NCBI GenBank assembly: GCA_050733215.1
Contig: JBOHSN010000005.1
Coordinates: 5,322 to 69,321 of the forward strand
Reading direction: 5' to 3'
DNA length: 64,000 nucleotides
Source of the DNA: Gemmatimonadales bacterium
Lineage (GTDB): Bacteria > Gemmatimonadota > Gemmatimonadetes > Gemmatimonadales > GWC2-71-9
Part shown: piece after piece, positions 2,382 to 48,622 of the stretch
Position numbering within the stretch: position 1 is the first letter of the stretch
Layout: the number at the start of each line of letters is the position of its first letter
Made by a program: the position numbers and the translations under genes
The notes under the pieces: model-generated
What the model saw: only the letters and a program-made list of their open reading frames with translations
What the model was told of the DNA's origin: nothing
The model's database searches: none

Positions 2382-4916
2382 ATGTCAAAGCGTGCAGTGT
2401 CTGGGTTCCATACCTGGCTCCGTTCCGTCGCTCTGGCCGTCCTGGCCGCTCTCCTTCCCAGCATCACGACCGCGCAGCAGTCGGGTACAGTCACCGGAAC
2501 GGTGACCCGGGCCGAAGGCGGGGGCGCGCTGGCGGGCGTATCCGTATCGGTGCAGGGCACCGGCCAGACTACGGCCAGCCGTGGCGACGGCCGATACACG
2601 CTTCGCAACGTGCCCGCCGGCCCCCGGACCATCGTGTTCCGCTGGCTGGGGTATCGGCCCACTGAGCTGCCGGTGACGGTGGAACCCGGTGGGAGCGCTA
2701 CGCTGGATGCTGCGCTCGAGCCGGCGCCGGCGATCCTCAGCGACCTGGTGGTGCAGGGCGCCTCCCGCGCACCGGAGCGCATCGTCGAAGCGCCGGCGGC
2801 CATCTCGGTGGTCGAGCCCCGACTGCTCGAGGCCAACACGATTACCGGCCAGGTGCCGATGGCGCTGAAGGAAACGCCCGGCGTGGACCTGGTGCAGAGC
2901 GGCGTCAACGACTTCAACGTCAATACCCGCGGGTTCAACTCATCGCTCAACCGCCGCATGCTGGTGCTCCAGGACGGACGCGATCTCGCCATCGCGTTCC
3001 TCGGCTCGCAGGAGTGGAACACGCTCTCCGTTCCGCTCGAGGAGCTGGGACGCATCGAGGTGGTGCGCGGGCCGGGGTCGGCGCTCTACGGCGCGAACGC
3101 CTTCAGCGGCGTCATCGCGCTCACCACCCCGGCCGCGCGGGAGATCGTGGGGACCAAGCTCACGATCGGCGGCGGCGAGCTGGAGTCGCTCCGCGGCGAT
3201 CTGAGCCACGCCGGCGTCGCGGGCGGTGGACGGTTCGGCTACCGGGTGAACGGTGGCTACTACCGGAGCGACACGTTCACCCGCTCCCGGACGCTCCTCG
3301 ACCGCTCGAGCCTCGCGACGGAGTACGCGCCCGCTACCGACGCCGCCATCGGCCCGGCGCGGGAGGCACGGCCGCTCTCGGGGCAGACCCTCGACCCGGT
3401 GACCGGCGCGCCGCTGGGCGACCGCGACGACCTCCAGAACATCTACGGCTCGGCCCGGGTCGATTACTACACCCCTGGCGGCTCGGTGGTCAGCGCGGAC
3501 GGCGGCGCGGCCCGGGTGGAGAACGAAGTGCTCGTCACCGGCATCGGCCGGGTGCAGATTGAGAAGGCACTCCGTCCGTGGGCCCGGCTGGCCTGGGCCG
3601 GCGAGCGGTTCAATGTGTTCGGGTTCTGGAACGCACGCCGGACCCTCGATCCCCAGTTCTCGCTGGCGTCGGGCGCGCCGCTCCGCGAGACATCCGACAT
3701 CTTCCACGTGGAAGGGCAGACCAACTTCCGCTTCCTCGAGGAGCGGGGCCGGGTGGTGGTCGGGACGTCGTACCGGAACACCAACGTGGACACCGAGCTC
3801 ACCCTGATGGAGGCGGCGAACGACAACCGGAGCGACGATCTCTACGCGGGCTATGGCCAGGTGGAGTTCGACATCATTCCCAAGCTGAAGCTGGTCGCGG
3901 CGGCGCGCATCGACGACGGCACGCTGATCAGCACCCAGTTCTCGCCCAAGGGCGCCATCGTCTTCAGCCCGAACGAGAATCACTCCATCCGGGCGACAGT
4001 GAACCAGGCGTTCCAGACGCCCAACTACTCCGAGTTCTTCCTCCGGGTGGCGGCGGGCGCGCCGGCCAACTTCACCGCGCTCGAGACCGGGCTCCGGGCC
4101 TCAGCGCTCGGCCCGGCGCTCGCGGGCGTCCCGGTGGGGACGCTCTTTACCACGTCGGCGGCGGTGCCGGTGTTCGCCCGCGGCAACGCCGGGCTCGACG
4201 TCGAGTCCACCACCGGATACGAGCTGGGCTACAAGGGGGCGTTCGCGAACCGAGTGTATGTCACGCTGGATCTGTACTACAACGCAATCAGCGACTTCGT
4301 GACCGACCTCCTCCCCGGCGTGAATCCGGCGTACGGCCCCTGGACCGCGCCGGACGCCGTGCCGCCGCAGTTCCGGCCGGCGCTCGAGGCGGCGGTGCGA
4401 AACAGTCTCGCGCCGATCAACCCGATCGCCGCGGCGGGACTCACACGGGTGAATGGCAACACCGAGATCGTGCTGTCCTACACCAACGCCGGCCAGGTGG
4501 ACCAGTACGGCGCCGAGCTCGGTGTCGGTGTCCAGATTACCGACGAGGTCCGGGCGGACGGCTCGCTCAGCCTGTTCGACTTCGAGGTCGAGGCGGGCAG
4601 CCAGGCGGTGGGCGACCAGCTCCTGGCCAACACGCCCAGCACGAAGGGGACGCTGGGCGTCTCGTACACCGGGCGGCAGGGGCTCGACCTCGGCGCCAGC
4701 GTCCGGATCGTGGACAGCTACCAGTGGGCCGCGGGCGTGTTCGTGGGCGAAGTGCCCTCGAGTGAGTCGGTGGACGTGAACGCGGGGTACCGGATCAACC
4801 ACAACTTCCGGGTGTTCGCGCTGGCGACGAACGTGTTCGATCAGGAGCGGTATCACCTGTTCGGCGGGTCGGTGATCGGGCGGCGGGTGTTGGGCGGTAT
4901 CACCGTACAGTTCTAA
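2382..4916 (+). CDS. TonB-dependent outer-membrane receptor with N-terminal carboxypeptidase-regulatory-like domain
   Basis: ORF 2199..4916. Start set at ATG 2382 with GGGAGG at 2371-2376. Signal peptide, then [45 protein letters not shown], a plug region, a beta-barrel with alternating pattern, and C-terminal ..GGITVQF (terminal Phe). Confidence 0.9.
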
Positions 4917-4929
4917 CAAGAGGCTGGCG

Positions 4930-5122
4930 GCTATCCGCTATCCGCTTGTTCACGCGGCCCTCCGATGTCCTTGACGTCGGGGGGCCGCGGTGCATCGTCC
5001 CGTGGATAGCGGATAGCGGATAGCGGATAGCGGATAGCGGATAGCGGATAGCGGATAGCGGATAGCGGATAGCGGATAGCGGATAGCGGATAGCGGATAG
5101 CGGATAGCGGATAGCGGATAGC
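4930..5122. repeat. tandem-repeat-armed palindrome A: 2 x GCTATCC, GC hairpin core, 17 x GGATAGC
   Basis: Left arm 4930-4943 (GCTATCC x2). Core 4954-4988 is GCGGCCCTCCGATG..CGTCGGGGGGCCGC, a 14-bp stem with G-U pairs. Right arm 5004-5122 is exactly 17 perfect GGATAGC heptamers (119 nt), ending 16 nt before the leuS ATG. Confidence 0.95.
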
Positions 5123-5137
5123 TGCTACATTTCCGCC

Positions 5138-7657
5138 ATGTCCAGCAGCCCGACTCCCGCCCGCTCCCGCCCGCTCCCGCCCGCTCCCGACCCGGGCGGT
5201 TACGATCCGACCGCCGTCGAAGCGAAATGGCAGGCCCGCTGGGCCGAGCAGCGCACCAACGAGCCCGATCTCGACGGCGCGGCGCGTCCGTTCTTCAACC
5301 TGATGATGTTCCCGTACCCCTCGGCTGAGGGCCTCCACGTCGGGAACATGTTCGCCTTCACCGGCAGCGACGCCTTCGGGCGGTTCCAGCGGCTGCGTGG
5401 TCATGACGTCTTCGAGCCGATCGGCTTCGACGCGTTCGGCATCCACAGCGAGAACTACGCGATCAAGGTCGGCATCAACCCGGCCGAGCTGATCCCGCGC
5501 AACATCGTGAACTTCCGGCGCCAGCTCGTCCGGATCGGCGGAATGTTCGACTGGTCGCACGCGCTCGCCACCACTGACCCCGCGTACTACAAGTGGACCC
5601 AGTGGATCTTCCTCCAGCTGCTGAAGGCGGGGAAGGCGTACCGAAAGGCTGCGGCGGTCAACTGGTGCCCCAGGGACCAGACCGTGCTCGCCAACGAGCA
5701 GGTCATCAACGGACGCTGCGAGCGCTGCGACACGCCGGTCGAGCAGCGGACGCTTGAGCAGTGGTTCTTCCGCATCACCGAGTACGCCGGCCGCCTGCTG
5801 GCCGACCTCGACGATCCGGCCAGGATGGACTGGTCCGACAGCACGGCCACCGCTCAGCGGAACTGGATCGGCCGGTCCGAAGGCGCCGAGATCGAGTTCA
5901 CGGTGGGCGGCGCGGAAGACCAGGCGGACGGCGCCTCCGACGAGCGGCGCATCCGCGTCTTCACCACCCGGCCGGACACGCTGTTCGGCGCCACGTTCAT
6001 GGTGCTCGCGCCCGAGCATCCGCTCCTGCTGGAGATCGTCACGCCCGAGCAACGCGCGGCCGTGCTGGCGTACCGTCAGGCCGCGCAGGCCAAGGACCTG
6101 GTCTCACGCAAGGTCGGCGACCGCGACAAGAGTGGCGTCTTCACCGGCGCGTTCGCGACCAACCCCGCCACCGGCGCGCTCATCCCCGTGTGGACCGCCG
6201 ACTACGTGCTCATGGAGTACGGCACCGGCGCCATCATGGCCGTGCCGGGCCACGACGAGCGCGACTTCGAGTTCGCGCGGAAGCACGGTCTCGAGATCGT
6301 TCGAGTGCTGGCGCCGGAGGGACAGCCGGCCAATGCGCCGCTCGAGGCCGCCGAGACCGAGACCGCCGGGTACCGGATGGTGAATTCGGGTCCGTTCAAC
6401 GGCCGGCCTGCGGATGCGGGCAAGCGCGACATCATCCGCTGGCTGGAGTCGTCAGGCCACGGCAAGGGTGTCGTGCAGTACCGGCTGCACGACTGGTGCA
6501 TCTCCCGCCAGCGGTACTGGGGCCCGCCGATCCCGATCATCTACTGCGAGCGCTGCGGCCCGGTGCCGGTCCCGGAGGAGGACCTGCCCGTACTGCTACC
6601 CGCGATCGACGACTTCCGCCCCGACGACACGGGTGTGTCGCCGCTCGCGCGGGTGAAGGAGTGGTACCACGTTGCCTGCCCGCAATGCGGCGGTCCCGCG
6701 CGCCGGGAGACCGACGTCTCCGACACGTTCCTCGACTCGGCGTGGTACTTCCTGCGCTACCCGAGCACGGACTTCGACGACCGGCCGTTCGATCCCGCGC
6801 GCACCCAGAAGTGGCTGCCGGTGGCCACGTATATCGGCGGCAACGAGCACGCCGTGCTCCACCTGCTCTACTCCCGCTTCATCACGATGGTGCTGCACGA
6901 TCTCGGCCATCTCGACTTCGACGAGCCGTACCGAACGTTTCGCGCGCACGGGCTGATCGTGAAGGACGGCGCGAAGATGTCCAAGTCGCGCGGCAACGTC
7001 GTCGTGCCCGACGACTACATCGCACGCTGGGGGGCCGACGCCTTCCGGATGTACCTGATGTTCCTGGGTCCGTTCCAGGAGGGCGGCGACTTCCGCGACG
7101 ACGGCCTCAACGGCCCGCGGCGGTTCCTCGACAAGCTGTGGGCGCTGGTGGGTCAGAGCCTGCGGGAGGATGCGGCGGGGGGTGAGATCCACCACCCCAT
7201 CCTGGTGAAGTGGCATCAGACCAGGAAGAAGGCGACGCACGACATCGAGCGGCTGAGCTACAACACCGCGATCGCCGCGCAGATGGAGCTGCTCAACACG
7301 ATGCGCGAGGCGAACTGCGCCGAGCGCGCCGTGGTCGAGGACATGGTGCTCATGGTAGCGCCGTTCGCGCCCCACTTCGCCGAGGAGTGCTGGGAGCGGC
7401 TCGGCCACGACGGCTCGATCTTCGACGGCCGCTGGCCCGAGTGGGACGAGGCGCTGACGGTGGAGGACACGGTCGAGATCGCGGTCCAGGTGAACGGCAA
7501 GACGCGGGGCAAGGTGACGGTGCGGCGGGACGCAAGCGAGGACGAGGCGGTGAAGGCGGCCAGCGCGGAACCGTCGATTCGGAAGTTCCTCGACGGGAAG
7601 ACGGTGAAGAAGGTGATCCTGGTTCCCAACCGGCTGCTCAATCTTGTGGTGCAGTGA
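5138..7657 (+). CDS. leuS: leucine--tRNA ligase
   Basis: 839-aa ORF. Motifs: YDPTAVEAKWQARW, HVGNMFAFTGSDAFGRFQRLRGHDV (HIGH-type motif), the editing domain, and GAKMSKSRGNVV (KMSKS). Confidence 0.97.
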   Translation: MSSSPTPARSRPLPPAPDPGGYDPTAVEAKWQARWAEQRTNEPDLDGAARPFFNLMMFPYPSAEGLHVGNMFAFTGSDAFGRFQRLRGHDVFEPIGFDAFGIHSENYAIKVGINPAELIPRNIVNFRRQLVRIGGMFDWSHALATTDPAYYKWTQWIFLQLLKAGKAYRKAAAVNWCPRDQTVLANEQVINGRCERCDTPVEQRTLEQWFFRITEYAGRLLADLDDPARMDWSDSTATAQRNWIGRSEGAEIEFTVGGAEDQADGASDERRIRVFTTRPDTLFGATFMVLAPEHPLLLEIVTPEQRAAVLAYRQAAQAKDLVSRKVGDRDKSGVFTGAFATNPATGALIPVWTADYVLMEYGTGAIMAVPGHDERDFEFARKHGLEIVRVLAPEGQPANAPLEAAETETAGYRMVNSGPFNGRPADAGKRDIIRWLESSGHGKGVVQYRLHDWCISRQRYWGPPIPIIYCERCGPVPVPEEDLPVLLPAIDDFRPDDTGVSPLARVKEWYHVACPQCGGPARRETDVSDTFLDSAWYFLRYPSTDFDDRPFDPARTQKWLPVATYIGGNEHAVLHLLYSRFITMVLHDLGHLDFDEPYRTFRAHGLIVKDGAKMSKSRGNVVVPDDYIARWGADAFRMYLMFLGPFQEGGDFRDDGLNGPRRFLDKLWALVGQSLREDAAGGEIHHPILVKWHQTRKKATHDIERLSYNTAIAAQMELLNTMREANCAERAVVEDMVLMVAPFAPHFAEECWERLGHDGSIFDGRWPEWDEALTVEDTVEIAVQVNGKTRGKVTVRRDASEDEAVKAASAEPSIRKFLDGKTVKKVILVPNRLLNLVVQ
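5151..5190. repeat. C-rich decamer array (CCGCTCCCGC x about 4) inside the leuS N-terminal extension
   Basis: cgactcccgc ccgctcccgc ccgctcccgc ccgctcccga. It encodes ..[15 protein letters not shown].., which lies before the conserved LeuRS core. Confidence 0.9.
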
Positions 7658-48504: not shown

Positions 48505-48542
48505 GAAAACGAAAGACCCCGGGGGAGCCAAACGTCCCGGGG
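48505..48542 (-). terminator. terminator-like hairpin plus U-tract immediately upstream of the metH ribosome-binding site
   Basis: Minus-strand RNA: CCCCGGG acguuuggcucc CCCGGGG UCUUUCGUUUUC, then AGGAGcgcccGUG. A 7-bp GC stem. It could terminate yggU transcripts or attenuate metH. Confidence 0.4.
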
Positions 48543-48622
48543 GAGGCGTTTAGCAGGTTGTTTAACGTGGCCGCAAGCTGCCGCAAATCGCCACGGATCG
48601 ATTGTCGGACTCCGCCGGTAAC

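What the first reader, a model, noticed from the sequence alone, without database searches (positions are those of the whole stretch)
4930..5122. Extreme arm asymmetry: 2 versus 17 perfect GGATAGC heptamers ending 16 nt before the leuS start codon
The right arm is 119 nt of uninterrupted, mutation-free GGATAGC (17 copies). The left arm has only 2 inverted copies. The core is a 14-bp GC hairpin sitting 38 nt after the receptor gene's stop. Perfect identity across 17 units implies very recent expansion or ongoing homogenisation. The excess 15 units cannot pair with the left arm, so they form either the promoter/5'-UTR of an essential gene or a hypervariable tract. Three units equal 21 bp, about two helical turns, so a periodic protein-binding array is also conceivable.
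Basis: seen in the sequence. Interest (0 to 1): 0.6.

Follow-up and report, generated by a model that had tools for sequence, protein, structure and literature searches.

The report
Over-expanded arm of heptamer-repeat hairpin
The 17 perfect GGATAGC copies before leuS are real, but they are the slippage-expanded arm of one of about 60 repeat-armed hairpin elements in this soil Gemmatimonadales genome, and they lie just upstream of a probable leaderless -10-only leuS promoter that should not depend on array length.

Summary
Window 5004-5122 is (GGATAGC)x17 with no mismatch. The left arm at 4930-4946 has 2.4 GCTATCC units, and a 17-bp hairpin lies between the arms.

The tract is not a one-off. 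GGATAGC is the commonest tandem unit in this 3.97-Mb Gemmatimonadales MAG. The genome has 58 convergent pairs, (GCTATCC)n-core-(GGATAGC)m, with a median arm of 4.4 units. The two arm lengths are uncorrelated. The leuS copy has the highest arm ratio (7.1), followed by a mirror case (18.3/4.3) beside the RNase P RNA gene.

The assembly graph used k=127, so a 119-nt tract can be resolved and is not a collapsed loop. A second assembly breaks inside the array.

leuS has TACATT exactly 6 nt before its ATG. That spacing is the genome's sharp leaderless-promoter signature, so the array occupies about -16 to -134. Because the array is periodic, the bases next to the -10 box are the same at any copy number.

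Best reading: an old, decayed element whose pure right arm expanded by slippage, with little effect on leuS. No congener carries an element at leuS. The element belongs to a known but unexplained class of convergent heptamer arrays described in Xanthomonas.

The parts
2382..4916 (+). TonB-dependent receptor gene (CarboxypepD_reg + Plug + beta-barrel); stop TAA at 4914-4916
   Evidence: Pfam hits. ATG 2382 follows GGGAGG and is followed by a signal-peptide-like N-terminus. The exact 844-aa product is on record.
4930..4946 (.). Left (upstream) arm: GCTATCC x2.4, perfect
   Evidence: TRF; sequence
4947..5003 (.). Core of the element. It belongs to the 'CCTCCGATGTCC-loop-GGACATCGGAGG' core subfamily, but it is decayed: about 8 nt of the left outer stem are missing and the right outer stem has diverged.
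   Evidence: alignment with 9 other genomic copies; 4 pairs with compensatory changes
4953..4989 (+). Central hairpin: 17 pairs (15 Watson-Crick + 2 T.G, which are wobble pairs only in + sense RNA), loop CTT
   Evidence: RNA fold (this is the only helix in the centroid structure); pairs checked by hand
5004..5122 (.). Right (downstream) arm: GGATAGC x17, perfect, 119 nt. It has TAG in all three + frames and is open in all three - frames.
   Evidence: On its own it has little structure (RNA MFE -21.7 kcal/mol, DNA -8.9).
5123..5131 (+). TGC + TACATT: probable extended -10 box of a leaderless leuS promoter
   Evidence: TANNNT ending 6 nt before the first ATG occurs at 63 genes against a background of about 6 per offset. 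C at -1 is found in 49 of 63, as here. CTACATTT is also the -10 region of the conserved leuS promoter in 7 congeners.
5138..7657 (+). leuS (leucyl-tRNA synthetase, 839 aa)
   Evidence: Pfam. The ATGTCC start is shared with congeners.
5148..5194 (+). C-rich decamer array (GCCCGCTCCC x4.5) translated as the LeuS N-terminal extension. It is not part of the element but lies in the same 200 nt.
   Evidence: TRF. The N-terminus [17 protein letters not shown] is identical in an 88%-identical LeuS from a JGI metagenome.

Best explanation
The tract is the downstream arm of one copy of a lineage-restricted, dispersed, hairpin-forming repeat element, (GCTATCC)n - ~55-nt palindromic core - (GGATAGC)m. These elements fill the gap between a stop codon and the next functional base. 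The leuS copy is old: its core is decayed and its left arm has shrunk to 2.4 units. Its right arm, being a pure array, has recently expanded by replication slippage to 17 units (inferred). The two arms of these elements change length independently (shown), so large asymmetry is an expected rare outcome. leuS itself is most likely transcribed as a leaderless mRNA from the -10 box TGC-TACATT (5123-5131), which sits between the array and the ATG (inferred from genome-wide geometry). The array therefore lies at about -16 to -134. Because the array is periodic, the DNA next to the -10 box is the same for any copy number above about 3. Leaderless promoters in this genome have no -35 consensus. Array length should therefore have little effect on leuS expression, which would explain why a hypermutable tract is tolerated in front of an essential gene. 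The core hairpin plus short left arm still forms a stable RNA hairpin at the 3' end of the receptor transcript. Its likely role is 3'-end protection, termination or insulation; that function is not shown.
For: Family: GGATAGC is the commonest tandem unit (128 arrays). There are 58 convergent pairs and none in the opposite order. Median arm is 4.4 units and modal core is 52-53 nt. The family is present in 4 of 18 species of the genus and in none of 43 other genomes of the family or order.
Independent arms: Spearman rho between left and right arm lengths is 0.07, p=0.6. The leuS ratio of 7.1 is the maximum.
Other hyper-expanded pure arms: C81 18.3/4.3, C178 ~4/17.4, C72 11.4/4.4. The sister species G005 has perfect arrays of 16+, 13+, 10 and 9 copies at other loci.
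Decayed core.
Placement: 41 of 52 elements lie between co-directional genes and only 3 between divergent genes (17% expected). The element starts 0-7 nt after the stop codon, and the next ATG lies 0-17 nt after the downstream arm. One copy lies inside the ribosomal-protein operon between rplB and rpsS.
Leaderless promoter: TANNNT peaks at 6 nt before ATG (63 genes against ~6 background), with no -35 consensus. leuS fits this exactly.
Arrays flush to such promoters: 22 of 113 against 93 of 2058, odds ratio 5.1, p=3e-8, with many different units. The same layout is found at rnpB (Rfam 275 bits, TATATT directly after the array) and at alaS.
Absence in relatives: none of 12 congeners with a readable leuS upstream region has an element there, and 9 of them keep a conserved TTGGCG-N18-TACATT-type promoter.
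RNA-level structure: the sense strand folds better than the antisense strand in 27 of 40 co-directional elements (Wilcoxon p=0.015). Both wobble pairs of the leuS core are U.G in the sense RNA.
Copy number credible: k=127 overlaps. A second assembly with 100% identical flanks breaks in the array, with 101 nt and 103 nt of array at its two contig ends.
Against: No reads, RNA-seq or TSS data could be examined, so slippage, polymorphism and the leaderless start are all inferred. The strict sigma-70 and terminator scan finds nothing at 4700-5400, and the hairpin has no U-tract. The tail of arm lengths is somewhat heavier than an exponential fit: 2 paired arms of 17 or more (3 arrays counting the unpaired C178 array) against 0.6 expected. 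Two of the three longest arrays abut -10 boxes of essential genes (leuS, rnpB), which could mean something more than neutrality. The sense/antisense folding bias could also come from transcription-linked C-to-T mutation bias rather than selection. The 17 copies are the largest whole number resolvable at k=127, so longer alleles in the population would be invisible.
Confidence: 0.6

Rival explanations
1. Contingency or tuning tract. Array length is hypervariable within the population and modulates leuS, for example by moving the upstream hairpin or terminator relative to the promoter, by changing DNA curvature or supercoiling, or by changing read-through from the receptor gene.
For: The pure 17-unit array is of the kind that slips at high rate. 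It lies directly upstream of the -10 box. A second assembly cannot traverse it. The two most asymmetric elements both abut promoters of essential genes.
Against: The sequence next to the -10 box does not change with copy number. leuS is an essential housekeeping gene, unlike known phase-variable genes. Arrays with many different units occupy the same position at 22 leaderless-type starts. At rnpB the expanded arm is the one far from the promoter. No alternative-allele contigs are present in the bin.
Confidence: 0.12
2. The array is a working promoter part: a -35 or UP-element substitute, or the binding array for a heptamer-specific protein.
For: Tandem arrays are 5-fold enriched flush against leaderless -10 boxes. 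The ancestral -35 (TTGGCG), conserved in 9 congeners, is absent in this genome, and array units occupy its place.
Against: There is no -35 consensus among 63 leaderless-type promoters. The array units at such promoters differ completely in sequence. The closest relative G005 has the same -10/ATG geometry with no array and only 22 nt between the upstream stop and the -10 box. The enrichment is explained by geometry: arrays fill space up to the first functional base. The best alignment of GGATAGC to TTGACA or TTGGCG at 16-18 bp spacing is 3 of 6 or fewer.
Confidence: 0.1
3. The copy number is an assembly artefact. The array is long, but 17 is not the true count.
For: 17 x 7 = 119 is the largest whole number of units that fits under the k=127 resolution limit of 125 nt. 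The C81 array (128 nt periodic) lies in the range expected for a collapsed loop. The second assembly fails to span the array.
Against: A collapsed loop at k=127 would give at least 126 periodic bases, and collapse at lower k (99) would give about 98-104; 119 fits neither. The two contig ends of the second assembly each carry 101-103 nt of array, so the tract is at least about 15 units long in any case.
Confidence: 0.1
4. A recently transposed MITE-like copy that arrived with unequal arms. The asymmetry would have been inherited from insertion rather than generated in place.
For: Cores fall into subfamilies shared by dispersed copies, even between elements with different arm units. A single-copy Y1 (IS200/RAYT-like) transposase gene is present in 17 of 18 genomes of the genus.
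Against: The leuS core is the most decayed member of its subfamily, which argues for an old copy, while the arm is perfectly pure, which argues for recent change. No other copy has similar arms. The Y1 gene is not flanked by arrays.
Confidence: 0.05

Closest known systems
Convergent heptamer simple-sequence-repeat arrays of Xanthomonas (GGGAATC) and Nostoc (GGGGAYT), Rehm et al. 2015, PMC4692102. See also Mori et al. [quoted passage not shown]
   Same: The repeat has a 7-nt unit and arrays reach 14-26 perfect units. There are tens of dispersed intergenic sites per genome, with 70-75 convergent inverted pairs in Xanthomonas. The arrays lie close to the end of the upstream ORF, are under-represented between divergent genes, and have no demonstrated regulatory role.
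   Different: The unit here has no G-triplet and so cannot form the G-quadruplex that defines the Xanthomonas and Nostoc repeats. The pairs here enclose a ~55-nt palindromic core that falls into subfamilies. The elements lie flush between the stop codon and the next start or -10 box. The lineage is Gemmatimonadales.
REP/BIME elements and their RAYT transposases (E. coli, Pseudomonas; Di Nocera et al. 2013, PMC3733652)
   Same: They are dispersed extragenic palindromes at 3' ends of genes and between operon genes, and they are transcribed as hairpins. The genome carries a single-copy Y1 transposase homologue.
   Different: No GTAG or CGTC tag was identified. The arms are tandem heptamers of variable number. 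The Y1 gene is not flanked by the elements.
Promoter-located phase-variation repeats (for example the TA repeats between -35 and -10 of Haemophilus hif; own knowledge)
   Same: A slippage-prone tandem repeat sits within a promoter region.
   Different: Those repeats lie between -35 and -10, so unit number changes the promoter spacing, and they control surface or contingency genes. Here the array lies upstream of a -10-only promoter of a housekeeping gene, and the local sequence does not change with copy number.
Leaderless, -10-only promoters of Actinobacteria and Deinococcus (TANNNT about 7 nt upstream of the start codon; own knowledge of the Mycobacterium and Deinococcus TSS maps)
   Same: TANNNT ends 6 nt before the ATG, there is no Shine-Dalgarno sequence, and there is no -35 consensus.
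   Different: This is inferred here from sequence statistics only, and no such map exists for Gemmatimonadales as far as my searches showed.

Membership tests
Convergent heptamer SSR arrays (Xanthomonas/Nostoc type, Rehm 2015) | Perfect or near-perfect tandem 7-nt units at many dispersed, mostly intergenic sites | tested here: met
   128 arrays of the AGCGGAT unit; 159 including one-mismatch units
Convergent heptamer SSR arrays (Xanthomonas/Nostoc type, Rehm 2015) | Frequent convergent (inverted) pairs able to form stem-loops | tested here: met
   58 pairs in the order GCTATCC...GGATAGC and none in the reverse order
Convergent heptamer SSR arrays (Xanthomonas/Nostoc type, Rehm 2015) | Close to the 3' end of the upstream ORF; under-represented between divergent genes | tested here: met
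   Elements start 0-7 nt after stop codons; 3 of 52 lie between divergent genes against 17% background
Convergent heptamer SSR arrays (Xanthomonas/Nostoc type, Rehm 2015) | G-rich unit with a G-run of 3 or more, able to form a G-quadruplex | tested here: not met
   GGATAGC has only a GG run. The array alone folds weakly. No G4 test is possible with these tools.
REP/REPIN-RAYT system | Single-copy RAYT (Y1 transposase) gene flanked by its cognate repeats | tested here: not met
   A Y1_Tnp gene is present once (C157:3444-3785), but no heptamer arrays lie within 500 nt on either side
REP/REPIN-RAYT system | 20-40-bp palindrome with a conserved GTAG or CGTC tag | tested here: inconclusive
   Some flanks end in GTAG, but these are the upstream genes' TAG stop codons. 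No conserved tag is seen in the core alignment.
MITE | Terminal inverted repeats plus a target-site duplication and a related autonomous transposon | tested here: inconclusive
   The arms are inverted repeats. No duplication could be defined because the arms grade into degenerate units. No autonomous partner was found.
Phase-variable promoter SSR (contingency locus) | Unit number changes the promoter spacing or reading frame of a non-essential, usually surface-related gene | tested here: not met
   The array is upstream of the -10 box, the local sequence is unchanged by copy number, and the gene is leuS
Phase-variable promoter SSR (contingency locus) | Copy-number polymorphism within a population | not testable with these tools
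The only second assembly has identical flanks and breaks in the array.
Leaderless -10-only promoter | TANNNT hexamer ending 5-7 nt upstream of the start codon, with no Shine-Dalgarno sequence | tested here: met
   TACATT at 5126-5131, 6 nt (TCCGCC), ATG at 5138; the genome-wide peak is at exactly this offset
Leaderless -10-only promoter | Mapped transcription start at the start codon | not testable with these tools
   No RNA data could be reached
Intrinsic (Rho-independent) terminator | GC-rich hairpin followed by a U-tract | tested here: not met
   No terminator-like site at 4700-5400; the hairpin is followed by GUGCAUCGUCCCGU

The most novel reading that the evidence does not exclude
Repeat-armed hairpins may be selected gene-boundary modules that are built flush against -10-only promoters of leaderless genes. 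Examples here are leuS, alaS and the RNase P RNA gene, and tandem arrays in general are enriched 5-fold at such starts. In this reading the upstream array acts as an insulator or a sequence-independent upstream promoter element. Arm expansion, as at leuS and rnpB, would then be a heritable, reversible way to tune how strongly an essential gene is shielded from upstream transcription.
Probability: 0.1. Interest if true: 0.6.

Novelty: new member of a known kind. Interest (0 to 1): 0.3.

Why it matters
By itself this locus is the extreme tail of a microsatellite length distribution. It matters in three smaller ways.

1. It shows that a hypermutable 119-nt pure repeat can sit 3 nt from the -10 box of an essential aminoacyl-tRNA synthetase gene. 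The proposed reason it is tolerated is that the promoter is -10-only and leaderless, and that a periodic array looks the same next to the promoter at any length.

2. The locus, together with the mirror case at rnpB, gives a clean natural test bed for whether these widespread and unexplained heptamer arrays have any effect on neighbouring promoters.

3. It shows that arm lengths in these hairpin elements evolve independently. This argues against any mechanism that keeps the two arms matched.

Tried and rejected

2. Second assembly GCA_973835775.1: its flanks are 100% identical over more than 10 kb, so it is the same population and not an independent count. Its record is not held for whole-genome search.

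3. Metagenome scan with the 21-mer TGCTACATTTCCGCCATGTCC: it returned only unrelated loci from other organisms. About 0.5 chance hits are expected for a 21-mer in a collection of that size, by my own rough estimate.

4. The only other LeuS in the 90% cluster (P0003, 88% identical, same downstream synteny) lies on a JGI contig that begins 134 nt upstream of its ATG. That is the same distance as the array start here and may hint at a contig break in an array. The DNA could not be fetched, so nothing is claimed.

5. Strict sigma-70 and terminator scan: no sites. Rfam: nothing at the locus.

6. Idea that CTGGCG+GCTATCC at 4924-4936 is the displaced ancestral -35 and spacer (TTGGCGCTAACC...): rejected. 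Only 10 of 17 bases match, and only with a gap. The 17-mer has 133 matches at 4 or fewer mismatches genome-wide.

7. Idea that a RAYT mobilises the family: a single-copy Y1 transposase exists in 17 of 18 congeners whether or not they carry GGATAGC arrays, and it is not flanked by arrays. This stays a lead only.

8. C74 element with the same TATATTTGA flank as rnpB: no Rfam family or tRNA lies downstream.

9. Self-structure of the array: weak on both strands, so the expansion is not explained by an intrinsic array hairpin.

Full report
OBSERVATION. The sequence is as described. Window 5004-5122 is GGATAGC repeated 17.0 times with no mismatch (TRF score 238). Window 4930-4946 is its reverse complement, GCTATCC, x2.4. 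The periodic tract is exactly 119 nt. Upstream is a TonB-dependent receptor gene (2382-4916, stop TAA at 4914-4916). Downstream is leuS (5138-7657; Pfam). ATG 5138 is the first and only in-frame start before the conserved LeuS body, and the ATGTCC start is shared with congeners. Between the arms is a 57-nt core. Its centre folds into a 17-pair hairpin (4953-4969 / 4973-4989, loop CTT). This is the only helix retained in the ensemble centroid of the RNA fold. Two of its pairs are T.G, which are wobble pairs only in RNA of the + sense.

IS THE COPY NUMBER REAL? The window is C5:5322-69321 of a 3.97-Mb, 198-contig, 69.6% GC assembly. Contig ends overlap by exactly 127 nt in 78 of 128 detected end overlaps. 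This is the signature of a de Bruijn assembly with final k=127. At that k, a periodic tract of up to 125 nt is bridged by single k-mers, and an unresolved loop would be written with at least 126 periodic bases. The 119-nt tract is therefore a read-supported allele and not a collapsed loop. It is, however, the largest whole number of units that can be resolved, so longer minor alleles would be invisible.

A second public assembly of the same population (GCA_973835775.1) has flanks 100% identical over more than 10 kb, and it breaks in the array. One contig ends with 101 nt of array and the other begins with 103 nt. The tract is therefore at least about 15 units long in an independent assembly run. 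No alternative-allele contig exists in the bin.

WHAT IT IS. The tract is one arm of one copy of a dispersed family. GGATAGC (canonical rotation AGCGGAT) is the commonest short tandem unit in the genome, with 128 arrays of 2.5 copies or more. With one-mismatch units allowed there are 159 arrays. Of these, 116 form 58 pairs in the order (GCTATCC)n - core - (GGATAGC)m, and none is in the opposite order. The modal core length is 52-53 nt. The median arm is 4.4 units (MAD 0.9).

The cores fall into subfamilies. The leuS core belongs to a 'CCTCCGATGTCC-loop-GGACATCGGAGG' subfamily with 7 GGATAGC-armed copies and 3 copies that carry a different arm unit (GGTCATC). In the alignment of these ten cores, four helix pairs show compensatory double changes. 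The leuS copy is the most decayed: about 8 nt of the left outer stem are missing and the right outer stem has diverged.

The organism is an uncultured Gemmatimonadales bacterium; the nearest named LeuS relatives are 70-72% identical. The GGATAGC family occurs in 4 of 18 species of its genus and in none of 43 other genomes of the family or order.

HOW UNUSUAL IS THE ASYMMETRY? Left and right arm lengths are uncorrelated (Spearman 0.07, p=0.6). The median absolute difference is 1.6 units, and 44 of 58 elements differ by 3 or fewer. The leuS element (2.4/17.0, ratio 7.1) is the most asymmetric. Next is a mirror-image case at C81:2334-2543 (18.3/4.3), and the remaining ratios are 2.8 or lower. Other long pure arms are C72 (11.4, 100%) and C178 (17.4, 98%, opposite a degenerate ~4-unit arm). 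The sister species G005 has perfect arrays of 16+ (cut by a contig end), 13+, 10 and 9 units at other loci.

An exponential fit to arm lengths predicts 0.6 arms of 17 or more among 116. Two are seen among the paired arms, and the unpaired C178 array makes three arrays. The tail is therefore somewhat heavy, as expected if slippage rate rises with the length and purity of an array, but it is not a different kind of object. The longest arms are the purest (100%), while mid-length arms are interrupted by CGATAGC-type variants (84-93%). This fits recent expansion of uninterrupted arrays. The combination at leuS of a decayed core, a shrunken left arm and a perfect right arm argues for in-place expansion in an old copy rather than a recent insertion.

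WHERE THESE ELEMENTS SIT. I used a crude GC3-based gene map. Of 52 classifiable elements, 41 lie between co-directional genes, 8 between convergent genes and only 3 between divergent genes (17% expected). The upstream arm begins 0-7 nt after the stop codon of the upstream gene. In co-directional gaps the next ATG follows the downstream arm by 0-17 nt. The 15-nt gap at leuS is therefore typical.

One copy lies between rplB and rpsS inside the ribosomal-protein operon, 3 nt before the S19 start, so the elements are transcribed. At that junction congeners carry either nothing (TAATG overlap in G002 and G010) or palindromic arrays of other heptamers: GCTATCC in G005 and G006 with different arm counts and cores, GCTATCA/GCTGATA in G013, GCTAACG in G015, and CCATTAG in G003 and G008. 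Presence, unit and copy number all turn over between species.

The sense-strand RNA of co-directional elements folds better than the antisense strand in 27 of 40 cases (mean -2.9 kcal/mol, Wilcoxon p=0.015; 113 against 85 G.U pairs). This suggests structure maintained at the RNA level, although a transcription-linked mutation bias could mimic it.

THE leuS PROMOTER. Across 2171 predicted genes, a TANNNT hexamer ends exactly 6 nt before the first ATG in 63 cases, against about 6 at neighbouring offsets. A separate Shine-Dalgarno peak lies at 5-7 nt. These 63 share TAnnTT, C at -1 (49 of 63) and no -35 consensus. This is the signature of -10-only promoters of leaderless mRNAs.

leuS is one of them: TACATT (5126-5131), TCCGCC, ATG (5138), with TG at -15/-14 and no Shine-Dalgarno sequence. 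With +1 at 5138 the array spans -16 to -134.

In 9 congeners leuS has a conserved TTGGCG-N18-TACATT/TAGATT promoter and, where the leuS ATG can be read in the upstream stretch, a ~25-30-nt leader. In this genome and its nearest relative G005 only the -10 box remains, 6-7 nt from the ATG. G005 has no array and just 22 nt between the upstream stop and its -10 box. None of the 12 congeners with a readable upstream region has an element at leuS.

Tandem arrays of many different units end within 30 nt of 22 of 113 leaderless-type starts, against 93 of 2058 other starts (odds ratio 5.1, p=3e-8). The same layout is found at the RNase P RNA gene, where the C81 element is followed directly by TATATT and the RNA starts 6 nt later (Rfam 275 bits). 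It is also found at alaS (TATATT-N7-ATG after a 7.3-unit arm).

The simplest reading is geometric. These elements fill the spacer up to the first functional base, which for a leaderless gene is the -10 box. Because the array is periodic, the 30-40 bp next to the -10 box are identical for any copy number above about 3, so length changes should be nearly invisible to the promoter.

MECHANISM (commitment). Most likely (about 0.6): this is an old copy of a transcribed, hairpin-forming boundary element. Its core plus short left arm still form an RNA hairpin at the receptor gene's 3' end. Its pure downstream arm has expanded by replication slippage. The expansion is tolerated because leuS is driven by a -10-only leaderless promoter.

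- Shown: family membership, independent arm lengths, placement, promoter geometry, and absence in relatives.
- Inferred: slippage, recency, neutrality, and the hairpin's role. There is no U-tract and the terminator scan is negative.

Rivals are a tuning or contingency tract (0.12), a working promoter or protein-binding array (0.10), a wrong copy number (0.10), and an insertion that arrived asymmetric (0.05).

COMPARISON WITH KNOWN SYSTEMS. The closest described objects are the convergent GGGAATC heptamer arrays of Xanthomonas. They have 70-75 inverted pairs per genome, are 89-93% intergenic, lie about 28 nt from the upstream ORF, are rare between divergent genes, and have no regulatory role found (Rehm et al. 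2015, PMC4692102). A broader survey noted that heptamer repeats are the most abundant intergenic tandem repeats in prokaryotes, with no known function (Mori et al. 2018, PMC6344855). The present family shares architecture and placement with these. It lacks the G-quadruplex potential that defines them, and it adds a conserved palindromic core.

REP/RAYT membership fails. A single-copy Y1 transposase homologue exists in 17 of 18 congeners, but it is not flanked by arrays. Classical promoter phase-variation repeats differ in position and in the type of gene they control.

Earlier notes of this scan on this and other Gemmatimonadales genomes describe the same class and the same flush-to-promoter placement. 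I reached the leaderless statistics before reading them, and my results agree.

VERDICT. The finding is a new member, at the extreme length tail, of a known but unexplained kind of element. Interest is modest (0.3).

Noticed in passing
G000 contig C81:2334-2928 (locus L104:835-1429): The mirror-image extreme element (GCTATCC x18.3 / GGATAGC x4.3) ends directly at a TATATT box, 6 nt before a class A RNase P RNA gene (Rfam RF00010, 275 bits). Its 128-nt periodic tract is in the range where a k=127 assembly collapses loops, so 18 copies is a lower bound.
   Followed up: partly
G000 contig C77:14684-14802, and loci L107-L119: A GGATAGC-armed hairpin lies between rplB and rpsS inside the ribosomal-protein operon, 3 nt before the S19 ATG. 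Congeners have either a TAATG stop/start overlap or palindromic arrays built from other heptamers (GCTATCA, GCTAACG, CCATTAG) at the same junction.
   Followed up: partly
genome-wide (G000): There is a sharp leaderless-promoter signature: TANNNT ends 6 nt before the first ATG at 63 genes (113 at 5-7 nt), with C at -1 and no -35 consensus. About 5% of genes appear leaderless. alaS (C104, ATG at 1391 on the - strand) is among them.
   Followed up: yes
window 5148-5194: A C-rich decamer array (GCCCGCTCCC x4.5) is translated as the N-terminal extension of LeuS ([17 protein letters not shown]). The peptide is identical in an 88%-identical LeuS from a JGI metagenome.
   Followed up: partly
window 48531-48604 (- strand): There is a match to the SAM-II (SAM_alpha, RF00521) riboswitch at 49 bits (gathering score 36), in a Gemmatimonadales genome. 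Rfam describes this family as the alpha-proteobacterial SAM riboswitch.
   Followed up: no
G000 contig C157:3444-3785 (- strand) and 16 congeners: A single-copy, intact IS200/RAYT-like Y1 transposase gene (HUH motif HVH, 151-aa ORF) is present in 17 of 18 genomes of the genus. It is not flanked by heptamer arrays. It is a candidate enzyme for hairpin-element turnover, but this was not tested.
   Followed up: partly
loci L083-L092 (leuS upstream in congeners): A 17-nt block, TTGGCGCTAACCCTGCG, that includes the -35 box and spacer of the leuS promoter is almost invariant in 9 species whose LeuS N-terminal parts are only 76-80% identical to this genome's. This is more conservation than a promoter spacer needs and may mark an operator. 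It is lost in this genome and in G005.
   Followed up: no
G000 contigs C8:35273, C21:3884, C69:17031: The same core-hairpin subfamily as at leuS occurs with a different arm unit (GGTCATC/GATGACC). Core and arms are therefore separable modules.
   Followed up: partly
JGI sample 3300078620, 6702-nt contig (no DNA available): The only other public contig with a closely related leuS (88% identical) and the same downstream gene order begins 134 nt upstream of the ATG. That equals the distance from the array start to the ATG here and may hint at a contig break in a similar array.
   Followed up: no
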